This document shows, piece after piece, positions 56,276-60,303 of a DNA stretch of 64,000 nucleotides; position 1 is the stretch's first letter, and every line of letters begins with the position of its first letter. Origin of the DNA: the human T2T-CHM13v2.0 reference genome, Homo sapiens; contig CP068257.2 of assembly GCA_009914755.4 (NCBI GenBank), positions 24,768,001 through 24,832,000 on the forward strand, read 5' to 3'. The position numbers were made by a program, and so were the translations under genes. The notes beneath the pieces are model-generated. The model worked only from the letters and a program-made list of their open reading frames with translations, ran no database searches and was not told the origin of the DNA.

Positions 56276-58573
56276 AATGAGGCAAAGTCAGCAGAAATAG
56301 AGGGTGAAAAAAATGGACACAAGACAATGAAAATATAATCTGTGTTATAATAGGTTCTTTCACTTTATTGCTTATTGTAAACACTTTGGCCATAGCAAAT
56401 GTTAGTTTTTAAATAACCGTAATTCAAAACTTTCACATCCTATACTATTTTTCCCCAAGAAGCATCATCTATGAAAACAATCAGTGAACTCCAACAGTCT
56501 ATACTGGTAATGTGCACATTGATGCTATTATGACACTTAATACAAATAGTAAAAATACTCATCTATTGTAGGCTTATGGGTTTGTAAAATGCCTTAAGGG
56601 AGGCCATAAACAACTCAAAGAAGAGATGGTGTGGACTGAACTGGCTTCTATTTGGGGAAAATTTGCAGAATATAGGAGGTACGCAATAAATGTTTATTGA
56701 TGGTGAAGATGAGAAAACCCTATTTCTGCTGATCTTTCCTTTCCGTTTTCCTTAAAGAATATAAGGTATATTTGTATTCAGCATTCTCAGAATCATCACA
56801 GAAACCCTGGCACTTTGAGAGTCTTAGCCACAGTGTAATTGGGTCTGACCACACGCAGAAGAAAAATAAATTAAAGCATATGTACTATTAAAATTGCACT
56901 GAAAACTTTATGTAAGTCAGGGAGCCCCTCACCAGAACAGGCTGAAACTCTTGAATGCTTTGCATCCTCATATATAAGAAAATCATCAGTGCTTAAAGAT
57001 CAAGGAACTCATTCAAAACAAATTCAGCCTTTGGACCTTACTGGCAGGTAGGTTATATTTCAGTCAGATCAATATCTTTCTAATATAGGTATTTGAAAGT
57101 AATATATGCTACTTATAATAATGATATAGTAAGCTTCTTATCTGCAAGTACAGGTACTATAACTTACACCTTAAAATGCTTTGTTTGATTGTTTCATTCA
57201 GCAAAATTCTTGGCACTGTTTTGGGATTTCACTGAATTTTGATGATGATATTGGATTAAGCATTTTAGATTTAATTGTAAAATGACACAAAAATCTAATC
57301 ATCTATTTCCAATGTTCAATATACAATTTTTATAAATACATGAAACAATTCATATAAAAATATAAATGTTAAGGTCACTCACAGCAAAATATGGCACATT
57401 AGAATTATTTATTAAATGCTTTATACATATAAAGGTAGGCACTTCATAAAATTTGCATTTTGGTAAAAGGCAACAATTTGATGTCAGTATCTTAATTGTG
57501 TCATTAACTTTTTTAAGAGAACAGATTATCAAAATTTTACGAAGAAGAAAAAAATAATAGTTTTAAGGAAATCTACAGAAGGGAATCTGAACTTCATTTC
57601 CCACTTTATTTTTGCGAGTCTGTTGTGTATCTTCATGGTCAAGTTCTGAGATTTTTGCTCCCTGACCTAAAATCCTGTGGGAATAATTGATTTCTCATCT
57701 TTTACTTGGAAGTGAAGTGTCTGCTACCTGTGGAACTTGATACAATTTTTTTTTTCTCCCCACAGTTAGAATAACCTTTATTCTGATCCACTATAAAGCC
57801 AGATGATTTTTAGGTGGCAGTAGCTGGCATTGAAGAGTTCTTGGCTTCAAGCGGCTGTTGAGTCTTTTTGGTCTTGTTTTAACTCCCTAATTAAATAAAT
57901 AAGATCCAACTCTTTCTGTTGTATTCACTCCTGGACATATAGAAATTCACTTCACACCCACCTAAAATACGAGCAGAACTTCTGAGGCCCAATGAACCCA
58001 TCTACTATTTGATTTTGTTATCCCTTCTGGAGCGTGTCTCTACCAAGAGCTTCACAAAGCAATCTAGTCATTGCTCTTTCTTGTACTAAAACCAGAGTAC
58101 CCATCCTGTAACTTCCATCAGGACCTCAAACAGTGCTAGGCACATAGTAAACTCTTAGGCACTCAAAATACATTTATTGATGAATGAAAGAATGAACAAT
58201 TCTAGTTCTGACTTTTAAAGCTATATAGAATAAAGTTGCTTCCTTGTGTGGGCCAAATCATTCTCCCATCCTACTTAGATCTTCTTTTTTTCCAGGATCA
58301 ATACTGAAACTTTCTTCACCTAGCCCTTAAACAACATGATTATCAGATATTTTGTCAATTACATTACTCTTCCCTGAATGTGCTTAGGTGGATCAGCAGA
58401 TCTCTTAAAATGTGGTTCCATAGAACCAAACATTAATACTCCAGATGGGGTCAGCTTTGAGCAGAGTAGAAATCCTATATCTCCTAGCAGGGATATTCCA
58501 CCTGACACATTATCTGACCCCAAAAAGTATTCCTTGGAGCAATTCTTTCCTGCCTGTTTCTGAGTAGAGGCAT

Positions 58574-58579
58574 TTTATT
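58574..58579 (-). promoter_or_regulatory. Putative polyadenylation signal (AATAAA on minus) about 47 nt downstream of the candidate stop codon
   Basis: Plus-strand tttatt in ggcattttattccagg, so the minus strand reads ggaataaaatgcc. Confidence 0.25.
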
Positions 58580-58625
58580 CCAGGCAAGATCGCCCATTGG
58601 CACATGTTCTGTTCTGGGAGATAGA

Positions 58626-58763
58626 TTATTTCCTTGCGTTTCCAGGATAAGGAGGGGGTGGAGAACGCTGTGCTGGACCCTGTGGGGTGGGGGAGTATGG
58701 AGGAGGCAAGTCTGCACAGTATTCCATCTCGTGGTCGTGACCGTAGGGTGGTGGTCCTGCTGA
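58626..58763 (-). CDS. Candidate terminal coding exon of an unidentified multi-exon gene (minus strand). It encodes a PPxY-motif-rich C-terminal tail: ...(A)[43 protein letters not shown] then stop
   Basis: The minus strand reads ctccttgatgttctcttccccttctttttcag|CAGGACCACCACCCTACGG...GGAAACGCAAGGAAATAA. There is a strong polypyrimidine tract plus AG (NAGNAG) acceptor, followed by a 45-codon open frame ending in TAA at plus 58626-58628. The frame holds three PPxY motifs. Five CpGs are retained in about 135 bp although the surroundings are CpG-poor. An AATAAA equivalent (tttatt on plus, 58574-58579) sits about 47 nt downstream of the stop. I could not assign a gene name from memory. Confidence 0.4.
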
Positions 58764-60303
58764 AAAAGAAGGGGAAGAGAACATCAAGGAGTTAGCAAAT
58801 ATTTGCATTTCTACTGTGTTGAAGCCACTGGGCTAGATACTTTGGGAGGGGACATAAATTGTGGCTGCAAAAATCTTAGTTTTATTAGGTCAGGACCACA
58901 TATGTATGAAAGGGTAAGTGCTCTAAAATGTGGTATCATGGGTCAAAGTGTTAAGAACTGGTTGTTTAGAGAAAGTTTCTTGAAAATATGATGCTGAAGT
59001 GGCAGAAAGAGAAGGTGAGGGACAATTCAGGTTGATCAAAAGCACTGAAGCGGGAGAGCCCTTCATCTCAAGCAAAAGTACATGAAAGGGAGAATGGGAA
59101 AAGACAATGAGGAGTGCGGTTATATCACCATGGTGGGCTCTGAATGCAATGTAGAATGTATAACATGTAGCTATCAGAGATTCTTTGAACATGGTAGTGA
59201 ATATGCTTTGAGAAAACCACTCTCAGCAGTCAACAGAGGCAGAGGTAGATAAAAGAAAAGCTGCAACAATGTAATGGCATATGTGAGGGATGATAAGGGA
59301 CTCATGACAGTGAGGGAAAAACATTCTAACAGTCCTTGAGCAACCAAGTCTTTAGGTGATGACTGGGTGTGTGGAGAAAGAGAGGAGAAAGTGAAAGAAG
59401 GGGTTGAGGTATTAGGTACCAAGTACAGGACTCCTATAATTGGAGGGGGGTGGAACCATTACAGAAATATGAAGAAGACAAAAAAGGAGGACAAGTAGGT
59501 TAGGAAATGAAGATGAAACATTTAATTTTCTGAATCTTATATGAAAAATTTTCTTTATTTTGTTACTGTACCATATGTCAGTGTTTTAAGAAAGTTTTTA
59601 AATTTTAAATAATTTTATTTTTTTGAATTGACAAATAATAATTGTACATATTCATGGGGTACAGAGTGATGTTTTGATATGCATAATGTATAATAATCAA
59701 ATCAGGGCAACTGGCATACCCATCATCTCAAACATTTGTCATTTCTTTATGCTGGGAACATTTAGTATCCTCCTTCTACCCATTTGAAACTATATATTAT
59801 TGTTGACTATAGTCATCCAGTGGTATAGAACACTGGAACTTATTCCTCCTATCTAGCTGTAATTTTATATCCTTTAATAAATTTCTCCCTATCCATCCTT
59901 TTTCCTACCCTTCTCAGCCTCTAGTATCCTCTGTTCTACCTTTTAATATACTTTATGATGACTATACATAAAAGTCTATTTTGTAGTGGTTTCAGTTCCT
60001 TTCTCTAGTGTTGAAAAAGAAGTACTCCTTGAGCTGAAATTTATCCACGTTTCCAAGAACTGAATCATTTTGCAACATCTGAGCAACTCCCTCAGCAACC
60101 AGTCTGATGAACTGCCAGTAGCTGAATCATCATCAGGATCCTGATGCTGCTTGGAAACTGACATGCCTTAATTGCCTACTGTGAATGTAACCCAAATCAC
60201 AAGACCAGTGTCATAATAATGCAAATAAGTGGGCATGCTCTTAATACTAGAATGGCAGAAAGGAACACACAACATTTCAACAAACTTTTCTAAATGTCTT
60301 CTA

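What the first reader, a model, noticed from the sequence alone, without database searches (positions are those of the whole stretch)
58560..58810. Candidate unannotated-looking terminal coding exon with three PPxY (WW-domain-binding) motifs on the minus strand
This is the only strongly gene-like signal in 64 kb of repeat-rich DNA. A textbook 3' splice acceptor (ctccttgatgttctcttccccttctttttcag|CAG) opens directly into a 45-codon frame: [44 protein letters not shown], then TAA. Three PPxY motifs close together are typical of cytoplasmic tails that recruit NEDD4-family or YAP-type WW domains. That is a general property of PPxY motifs. The exon keeps 5 CpGs in about 135 bp while the flanks are CpG-depleted, which suggests purifying selection. 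An AATAAA sits about 47 nt past the stop. If real, the gene lies on the minus strand with upstream exons beyond 58764 and probably beyond the window end, so this would be the last exon with a very short 3'UTR. I cannot name the gene from memory. Alternative explanations are a degenerate retroviral Gag late-domain (PPPY) fragment or chance.
Basis: partly seen in the sequence, partly recalled or inferred. Interest (0 to 1): 0.6.

Follow-up and report, generated by a model that had tools for sequence, protein, structure and literature searches.

The report
Last coding exon of CYYR1

Summary
On the minus strand, a polypyrimidine tract and an AG acceptor open into 44 codons ([44 protein letters not shown]). 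A TAA stop follows at 58628-58626 and an AATAAA at 58579-58574.

- **Family match:** Pfam PF10873 scores 58.6 bits against a cut-off of 31, on profile positions 107-149 of 149.
- **Published reagents:** two published human CYYR1 primers match exactly, and a published 181-bp PstI fragment length is reproduced.
- **Orthologues:** named CYYR1 proteins from gibbon to catshark keep all three PPxY motifs with no gaps.
- **Coding signature:** four orthologous genomic contigs show a conserved acceptor, no indels in the coding sequence, and differences concentrated at third codon positions. In the sauropsid contig only the acceptor and coding sequence still align.

Two corrections apply. The "very short 3'UTR" is one of two reported polyadenylation forms at most.

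The WW-domain idea has already been demonstrated: CYYR1 binds WWP1, WWP2 and ITCH through these motifs and drives WWP1 to lysosomal degradation. The retroviral Gag and chance explanations are rejected. The feature is already known and of low interest.

The parts
58791..58795 (-). Candidate branch point CTAAC. The branch A would be at 58792, 32-35 nt upstream of the two acceptor AGs.
   Evidence: Read. Partly conserved: GCTAAC in the window, GCTAAA in bear-like, GCCAAC in bat-like. PMC1863428 mentions a conserved putative branch site here. Its function is inferred.
58763..58787 (-). Polypyrimidine tract of intron 3: 22 of 25 bases are pyrimidines, and the last 18 are uninterrupted.
   Evidence: Read. 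Pyrimidine-rich in all five aligned species.
58757..58762 (-). Tandem (NAGNAG) 3' splice acceptor CAGCAG. The upstream AG ends at 58760 and gives the minor CAG+ isoform with an extra Ala. The downstream AG ends at 58757 and gives the major CAG- isoform.
   Evidence: The CAG+ junction primer from PMC1863428 matches 58737-58760 exactly. The paper describes both isoforms and the human/chimpanzee CAGCAG. The four other species have CAG|TGG, or AG|TGG in the bat-like contig, so only the upstream AG is conserved.
58629..58756 (-). Coding part of CYYR1 exon 4 in the major isoform. The first two bases complete a split Gly codon. It encodes the cytoplasmic tail (G)[42 protein letters not shown].
   Evidence: Pfam PF10873 at 58.6 bits against a cut-off of 31, profile 107-149/149. 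Named CYYR1 orthologues. No indels and a third-position bias against four orthologous contigs.
58743..58754 (-). PPxY motif 1 (PPPY)
   Evidence: Kept in every orthologue aligned.
58695..58706 (-). PPxY motif 2 (PPPY)
   Evidence: Kept in all orthologues except two: the L003 sauropsid has PPRY and P0021 has PPSY, which is still a PPxY. Deleting motifs 2 and 3 together abolishes WWP1 binding (PMC11399591).
58647..58658 (-). PPxY motif 3 (PPPY, within SPPPPYPG)
   Evidence: PPPPYPG is nearly invariant from catshark to primates.
58626..58628 (-). Stop codon TAA
   Evidence: TAA also in the pika-like and sauropsid contigs; CAA in the bear-like and bat-like contigs.
58575..58625 (-). Start of the 3'UTR. 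In the window it stays open in frame for 16 codons (SISQNRTCANGRSCLE) up to a TAA that lies inside the AATAAA. The same stretch is translated as a C-terminal extension in species that have lost the stop.
   Evidence: tblastn alignment to the Pteropus CYYR1 protein P0011 runs through the stop. DNA alignment. Identity to the window is 87% for bear-like and 78% for bat-like.
58574..58579 (-). Proximal poly(A) signal AATAAA
   Evidence: Identical in all four mammalian sequences. Its use as a cleavage signal is inferred. The published exon-4 RT-PCR primer at 58577-58599 overlaps it.
56039..58573 (-). Possible longer 3'UTR holding candidate distal poly(A) signals: AATAAA at 58178, 57782, 57610, 57413, 56698, 56369, 56061 and 56044, and ATTAAA at 57275. 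The true extent was not determined.
   Evidence: Signal positions. Two mRNA species attributed to alternative polyadenylation (PMC1863428). Identity to the bear-like contig is 0.60-0.90 down to 57921, against 0.66-0.78 in the intron.

Best explanation
Window 58756-58626 on the minus strand is the coding part of exon 4, the last exon, of CYYR1 in a primate genome, most likely human. The minor isoform begins at 58759. CYYR1 is a known, vertebrate-conserved gene for a small single-pass membrane protein.

Exons 1-3 encode the signal peptide, the Cys/Tyr-rich domain and the transmembrane helix. They lie beyond the window end, because intron 3 is longer than 5.2 kb. Exon 4 is joined through a tandem CAGCAG acceptor and encodes the cytoplasmic tail.

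The tail carries three PPPY motifs exactly 16 residues apart. Published experiments show that they bind the WW domains of WWP1, WWP2 and, more weakly, ITCH. The published model is that CYYR1 sits on Rab7 late endosomes and recruits WWP1 there. It then triggers K63-linked autoubiquitination of WWP1, and through ANKRD13A it sends WWP1 to lysosomal degradation.

Shown here: the identity of the exon, its splice-site anatomy, and its coding constraint. Taken from the literature: splicing, isoform ratios, WW binding and the degradation mechanism. Inferred: the branch point and the use of the proximal AATAAA.
For: Family and orthologues:
- Pfam CYYR1 PF10873 is the only family found. E = 1.3e-15, 58.6 bits against a cut-off of 31, covering the C-terminal end of the profile, positions 107-149 of 149.
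- Homologues are named CYYR1. They come from siamang (93% identity), tarsier, bats, rodents, pika, cattle, bald eagle and catshark. The catshark tail is 67% identical, ungapped, and ends at the same RK.

Published human reagents:
- The exon-4 reverse primer matches 58577-58599 with 0 mismatches.
- The CAG+ exon 3/exon 4 junction primer matches 58737-58760 with 0 mismatches.
- The published 181-bp PstI fragment equals 58757..58577.

Orthologous genomic contigs L001-L004:
- The acceptor AG is conserved in all of them.
- There are no gaps in the coding sequence.
- Differences by codon position (1st/2nd/3rd) are 4/1/11, 5/1/13, 7/4/13 and 14/6/18.
- The sauropsid contig aligns only over 58783-58625.

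Gene structure: tblastn with full-length orthologues finds only this exon in the window, at E = 5e-32. This fits the published structure of a 107-kb gene with 4 small exons and 3 large introns.

Function: PMC11399591 reports a yeast two-hybrid screen, co-immunoprecipitation, PPxY deletion mutants, ubiquitination assays and lysosome inhibitors.
Against: Nothing contradicts the identification. The limits are these:
- The human CYYR1 protein itself was not among the database hits, so 100% identity to the reference protein was not shown. It rests on 47 nt of exact primer matches and one fragment length.
- Human cannot be told apart from chimpanzee with what was available.
- No RNA data could be examined here.
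- The 3' end of the transcript was not determined.
Confidence: 0.97

Rival explanations
1. A degenerate retroviral Gag late-domain (PPPY) fragment from an endogenous retrovirus.
For: PPPY is a known retroviral late-domain motif (general knowledge). The window does contain transposable elements, such as the Alu matches.
Against: No Gag or other retroviral family appears at E <= 1, only CYYR1. All protein hits are CYYR1. The sequence sits at an orthologous, spliced position with alignable flanks in other mammals. Its frame is conserved to a sauropsid and a shark, which is far older than any primate ERV insertion.
Confidence: 0.003
2. A chance open frame in proline-rich or pyrimidine-rich non-coding DNA.
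For: The ORF is short, at 44 codons. Isolated PPxY motifs occur at about the chance rate elsewhere in the window: 10 observed against 8.2 expected.
Against: A stop-free triple PPxY cluster appeared in 0 of 200 simulations. The Pfam score is far above its threshold. Substitutions are codon-biased and there are no indels across four species.
Confidence: 0.001
3. A non-functional copy of CYYR1, either a processed pseudogene or a segmental duplicate, rather than the working locus.
For: The chromosomal position could not be checked with these tools. Only one exon is in the window.
Against: A processed copy would carry exon 3 sequence directly upstream. What lies upstream is an intron end with a branch-point-like CTAAC, a polypyrimidine tract and an AG. 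About 450 nt of that intron and more than 650 nt downstream align to CYYR1 exon-4 contigs of other mammals. The frame is intact. The sequence matches primers designed on the human genomic record AP001696 and mRNA NM_052954.
Confidence: 0.02

Closest known systems
[quoted passage not shown] First described by Vitale et al., Gene 2002. This junction was studied in PMC1863428 (2007), and the function in PMC11399591 (2024).
   Same: The same tail sequence family, three PPxY motifs, the same CAGCAG tandem acceptor, exact primer matches, the same PstI fragment length, and the terminal-exon position.
   Different: No difference was detected. The only untested point is identity over the whole exon to the reference record, because the human protein was not among the hits returned.
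Other STMC6 / Shisa-like single-pass adaptors: WBP1, WBP1L/OPAL1, VOPP1 and TMEM92, with the Shisa proteins more distantly related.
   Same: Short single-pass membrane proteins with an N-terminal Cys-rich domain and cytoplasmic PPxY motifs that engage NEDD4-family ligases. CYYR1 is placed in this group by Pei and Grishin 2012, as cited in PMC11399591 and PMC5578492.
   Different: The tail sequence here matches only the CYYR1 Pfam family at E <= 1. The paralogues have different tails and motif spacing, which I state from my own knowledge and did not test here.
NDFIP1/2 and ARRDC1-5, the PPxY adaptors and activators of NEDD4-family E3 ligases.
   Same: They use multiple PPxY motifs to bind WW domains, relieve ligase autoinhibition, and act at endolysosomal membranes (PMC11399591).
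   Different: They are unrelated in sequence and topology. NDFIPs are three-pass membrane proteins and ARRDCs are soluble arrestin folds. According to the paper, CYYR1 chiefly drives degradation of the ligase WWP1 itself rather than of a cargo.
NAGNAG tandem acceptors ('subtle' alternative splicing).
   Same: Two AGs lie 3 nt apart and yield isoforms that differ by one residue, here Ala.
   Different: The second AG is confined to a few primates. All four non-primate contigs have CAG|TGG, or AG|TGG in the bat-like contig. The 2007 paper found CAGCAG only in human and chimpanzee. A siamang predicted isoform also reads YPAG.

Membership tests
CYYR1 (Pfam PF10873) | Sequence match to the family profile above the curated gathering score | tested here: met
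   58.6 bits against a cut-off of 31, E = 1.3e-15, profile positions 107-149 of 149. It is the only family at E <= 1.
CYYR1 (Pfam PF10873) | C-terminal cytoplasmic tail with three PPxY motifs at conserved spacing | tested here: met
   Motifs start at 58754, 58706 and 58658, 16 codons apart. The alignment is ungapped to bear-like, bat-like, pika-like and sauropsid contigs and to the catshark protein.
CYYR1 (Pfam PF10873) | Orthologous genomic context: the last coding exon, preceded by an intron, with flanks alignable to the CYYR1 loci of other species | tested here: met
   The acceptor AG is conserved in 4 of 4 contigs. Mammalian contigs align from 59214 down to 57919.
CYYR1 (Pfam PF10873) | Identity with the published human gene sequence | tested here: met
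   Two published primers (23 and 24 nt) match with 0 mismatches, and the 181-bp PstI fragment is reproduced. Only 47 nt were compared directly.
CYYR1 (Pfam PF10873) | N-terminal signal peptide, Cys/Tyr-rich domain and transmembrane helix (exons 1-3) | not testable with these tools
   These exons are not in the window: tblastn with full-length P0011 finds only exon 4. The published gene is 107 kb with three large introns, so they are expected beyond position 64000.
CYYR1 (Pfam PF10873) | Exon 3 to exon 4 splicing in mRNA, in both the CAG- and CAG+ forms | not testable with these tools
   No RNA data were available. RT-PCR, sequencing and PstI digestion are reported in PMC1863428.
WW-domain (class I, PPxY) ligands of NEDD4-family E3 ligases | PPxY core motif in a cytoplasmic, accessible region | tested here: met
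   There are three PPPY motifs. The cytoplasmic location follows from the published topology and was not tested here.
WW-domain (class I, PPxY) ligands of NEDD4-family E3 ligases | Physical, PPxY-dependent binding to WW domains | not testable with these tools
   Published: a yeast two-hybrid screen, co-immunoprecipitation with WWP1, WWP2 and ITCH but not SMURF1/2, and loss of binding on pairwise PPxY deletion (PMC11399591).
Retroviral Gag late domain | Similarity to Gag and an ERV context (LTRs, gag-pol remnants) | tested here: not met
   No Gag family at E <= 1. All homologues are CYYR1. The frame is conserved to a sauropsid and a shark.

The most novel reading that the evidence does not exclude
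The 16 in-frame sense codons after the TAA (SISQNRTCANGRSCLE, 58625-58578) end at a TAA embedded in the conserved AATAAA. They might be a latent C-terminal extension that is sometimes translated in primates by stop-codon readthrough.

The same stretch has become coding by TAA-to-CAA/CAY change in bear-like and bat-like lineages. Rodents and tarsier carry shorter extensions. In those species an mRNA cleaved at the proximal site would have its stop codon inside the poly(A) signal and almost no 3'UTR.

The evidence leans against a constrained extension. Bear-versus-bat differences within it are mostly non-synonymous, by my reading. The pika-like contig has a 4-nt gap there. An open 16-codon run is expected by chance nearly half the time.
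Probability: 0.03. Interest if true: 0.3.

Novelty: already known. Interest (0 to 1): 0.07.

Why it matters
It matters mainly as validation. A reader working from raw sequence alone correctly picked a 130-nt terminal exon out of 64 kb, and correctly predicted its biochemical role, which is recruiting the WW domains of NEDD4-family ligases. That role has since been confirmed experimentally for CYYR1. Nothing new about biology follows from the finding. CYYR1, its NAGNAG acceptor, its alternative polyadenylation and its PPxY-dependent control of WWP1 are all published.

Tried and rejected
- The bovine CYYR1 locus could not be fetched, because the gene range was too long and no DNA was returned.
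- The window's own 60-aa ORF is not on record in the contig collection, so the organism could not be named that way.
- Casadei 2014 (the CYYR1 multi-transcript paper) and Pei and Grishin 2012 (STMC6) are not held in the library. The transcript 3' ends and the family definition therefore come second-hand from citing papers.
- My first protein alignment used the wrong frame for the window row, so its 'invariant column' list is meaningless for the window. It was replaced by the codon-aware DNA analysis.
- An Rfam scan of the whole window found nothing.
- A Pfam scan of the five ORFs of 130 aa or more found nothing.
- A 7-aa exact match to an exon-3 peptide (GILRTTH) on the plus strand at 61677-61697 is chance. 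There are stops within 10 codons on both sides and it is on the wrong strand.
- Retroviral Gag, a chance ORF and a processed pseudogene were considered and rejected (see the rival explanations).
- Cross-species conservation could not settle where the 3'UTR ends. Identity downstream of the proximal AATAAA is only a little above intron level.
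Full report
**Observation**

There is a pyrimidine-rich stretch: 22 of the 25 bases at 58787-58763 are pyrimidines, and the last 18 are uninterrupted. 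It ends in CAGCAG and is followed by an open frame that translates to [44 protein letters not shown].

- The TAA stop is at 58628-58626.
- AATAAA is at 58579-58574, 46 nt past the stop.
- The three PPxY motifs start at 58754, 58706 and 58658, exactly 16 codons apart.
- The coding part holds 5 CpGs in 138 bp, an observed/expected ratio of 0.51 against 0.18 for the whole window, and the neighbouring 250-bp bins hold 0-2.
- Only 1.3% of 138-bp windows are as CpG-rich. The other rich patches checked, 1550-1945 and 24499-24916, contain Alu matches.

Isolated PPxY motifs occur at the chance rate in the six-frame translation: 10 observed against 8.2 +/- 3.0 expected. A stop-free cluster of three within 45 residues appeared in none of 200 simulated windows.

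**Identity**

The 44-aa peptide matches one Pfam family only, CYYR1 (PF10873). The match has E = 1.3e-15 and 58.6 bits against a curated cut-off of 31. It covers profile positions 107-149 of 149, which is the C-terminal end of the family. No retroviral family appears even at E <= 1.

A word-indexed search and an exhaustive phmmer search returned 27 relatives between them. [quoted passage not shown] They come from siamang (93% identity), tarsier, three bat genera, rodents, pika, cattle, bald eagle and a catshark. The catshark tail is 67% identical over 42 residues, without a gap. It keeps all three PPPY motifs at the same spacing and ends at the same RK.

Full-length orthologues such as the Pteropus protein P0011 show the known architecture. 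A signal peptide is followed by a Cys/Tyr-rich block, a transmembrane helix, and then this tail.

**Direct link to the published human gene**

PMC1863428 (BMC Cancer 2007) lists primers designed on human CYYR1, from genomic record AP001696 and mRNA NM_052954.

- Its exon-4 reverse primer matches 58577-58599 with no mismatch.
- Its CAG+ exon 3/exon 4 junction primer matches 58737-58760 with no mismatch.
- The paper's PstI digestion of the CAG+ product gives a 181-bp fragment. The distance 58757..58577 is 181.

Alu elements in the window show it is primate DNA (together with general knowledge that Alus are primate-specific). Human cannot be separated from chimpanzee with the material I had.

The acceptor is a tandem NAGNAG: cag (58762-58760), CAG (58759-57), then G at 58756. 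The 2007 paper describes exactly this arrangement.

- The first-described CAG- mRNA uses the downstream AG. Its exon starts at 58756 and the protein reads ...YP-G-PPPY.
- The rarer CAG+ mRNA uses the upstream AG. Its exon starts at 58759 and inserts one Ala.
- The mean CAG-/CAG+ ratio was about 11 in normal tissues and 19 in tumours in the first experiment.

Its leading "A" is a split codon whose first base comes from exon 3, which ends ...CCTG according to the primer sequences.

A CTAAC at 58795-58791 is a plausible branch point, 32-35 nt upstream of the two AGs. This is inferred, though the paper also notes a conserved putative branch site.

Four short genomic contigs carry the orthologous exon. 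They were recovered because ORFs had been called through the intron end on them: L001 (bear-like), L004 (bat-like), L002 (pika-like) and L003 (sauropsid).

- The mammalian contigs align to the window from about 59214 down to 57919 at 72-75% identity.
- The sauropsid contig aligns only over 58783-58625, which is the acceptor plus the coding sequence and nothing else.

In the multiple alignment the upstream acceptor AG is present in all five sequences. The second CAG is unique to the window. The other four have CAG|TGG, or AG|TGG in the bat-like contig, which agrees with the 2007 paper.

| Measure | L001 bear-like | L004 bat-like | L002 pika-like | L003 sauropsid |
|---|---|---|---|---|
| Gaps in the coding sequence | 0 | 0 | 0 | 0 |
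| Differences at codon positions 1/2/3 | 4/1/11 | 5/1/13 | 7/4/13 | 14/6/18 |
| Identity in the coding sequence | 0.87 | 0.85 | 0.81 | 0.69 |
| Identity in the last 68 nt of the intron | 0.76 | 0.76 | 0.68 | 0.46 |

This is the signature of a coding exon under purifying selection.

**Other exons**

tblastn with full-length orthologues finds only this exon in the window, at E = 5e-32. Everything else is low-complexity (CA)n translation or noise. A 7-aa match on the wrong strand is chance. Intron 3 is therefore longer than 5.2 kb, which fits the published 107-kb gene with four small exons and three large introns.

**The 3' end**

The proximal AATAAA is identical in all four mammals. The about 100 nt after the stop are as conserved as the coding sequence, at 0.84-0.92 against the bear-like and bat-like contigs. 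A conserved proximal poly(A) site is therefore plausible.

The literature, however, reports two CYYR1 mRNA species consistent with alternative polyadenylation. Identity to the bear-like contig stays at 0.60-0.90 for another 650 nt, against 0.66-0.78 in the intron. Several further AATAAA and ATTAAA signals lie 0.4-2.6 kb downstream.

I could not determine which sites are used.

**How it works**

This part is established by others, not by me. PMC11399591 (J Biol Chem 2024) found CYYR1 in a yeast two-hybrid screen with WWP1 as bait. Its main results are:

- CYYR1 co-precipitates with WWP1 and WWP2, and more weakly with ITCH, but not with SMURF1 or SMURF2.
- The WW domains alone are sufficient for binding.
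- Deleting single PPxY motifs has little effect. Pairwise deletions, mainly of motifs 2 and 3, abolish binding.
- CYYR1 co-localises with Rab7A on late endosomes and recruits WWP1 there.
- CYYR1 induces K63-linked autoubiquitination of WWP1.
- Together with ANKRD13A it routes WWP1 to lysosomal degradation.

The paper places CYYR1 in the STMC6 (Shisa-like) group with WBP1, WBP1L/OPAL1, VOPP1 and TMEM92. PMC5578492 describes it in the same way.

**Rivals**

- **Retroviral Gag late domain:** excluded. Only CYYR1 hits were found, and the frame is conserved to a sauropsid and a shark.
- **Chance ORF:** excluded.
- **Processed pseudogene:** excluded by the intron end directly upstream and by orthologous flanks on both sides.
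- **Duplicated genomic copy:** cannot be formally excluded without mapping the window, but nothing suggests one.

**Side observation**

The stop TAA is CAA in the bear-like and bat-like contigs. Their proteins run 17 more codons, to the TAA that lies inside the conserved AATAAA. Rodent and tarsier proteins carry shorter extensions.

The window keeps the same frame open (SISQNRTCANGRSCLE). However, bear-versus-bat differences in this stretch are mostly non-synonymous by my reading. The pika-like contig has a 4-nt gap there. A 16-codon open run is expected by chance about 46% of the time, from (61/64)^16. I read this as recurrent stop loss running into a conserved 3'UTR, not as a constrained coding extension.

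**Verdict**

Novelty: already known. Interest: low.

Noticed in passing
window 58626-58628 and 58575-58625 (minus strand); L001:440-790; L004:1060-1400: The CYYR1 stop TAA is CAA in the bear-like and bat-like contigs. Their ORF continues 17 codons to the TAA inside the conserved AATAAA. Rodent and tarsier proteins (P0006, P0007, P0019) carry shorter extensions. The window keeps the same frame open for 16 codons. The substitution pattern and a 4-nt gap in the pika-like contig argue that this is neutral read-on rather than a constrained extension.
   Followed up: partly
window 58647-58754 (minus strand): The three PPPY motifs are spaced exactly 16 residues apart, start to start. The spacing is kept without a single indel from catshark to primates, which suggests a geometric constraint for engaging the tandem WW domains of WWP1, WWP2 or ITCH.
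   Followed up: partly
window 58757-58762 (minus strand): The second AG of the CAGCAG tandem acceptor is absent from all four non-primate contigs, which have CAG|TGG (AG|TGG in the bat-like contig). The change also converts the ancestral Val-Ala at the start of exon 4 to (Ala-)Gly. A siamang predicted isoform (P0004) reads YPAG, so the CAG may extend to gibbons, beyond the human and chimpanzee reported in 2007.
   Followed up: partly
window 16860-17055, next to 16788-16832: There is a perfect (100%) tandem duplication of a 97-bp unit immediately downstream of an (AG)22 microsatellite. The perfect identity suggests a recent event or an assembly artefact.
   Followed up: no
window 1677-1713, 16378-16414, 24797-24833: Alu consensus matches with 0-3 mismatches. 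The copy at 24797 matches perfectly over 37 nt and lies in the most CpG-rich patch of the window (24499-24916), so it is probably a young Alu. These matches mark the window as primate DNA.
   Followed up: partly
window 58120-58220 (minus strand): The second AATAAA (58178-58173) sits in a segment that looks like a MIR-type ancient repeat core (...GAGTGCCTA...CTATGTGCCTAGCACTGT...). That recognition is from memory and was not tested. The bin 58220-58171 is 90% identical to the bear-like contig.
   Followed up: no
window 49142-49585 (minus strand): This 147-aa ORF looks to me, from memory, like the C-terminal part of LINE-1 ORF2. Pfam found no family at E <= 0.01. None of the five ORFs of 130 aa or more has a Pfam domain, and Rfam finds nothing in the window.
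   Followed up: partly
window 2844-2886, 41419-41469, 41993-42029: Dinucleotide microsatellites (AC)21, (TG)25 and (CA)18. They produce spurious 'VCVCVC' tblastn hits to the Cys-rich transmembrane segment of CYYR1.
   Followed up: yes
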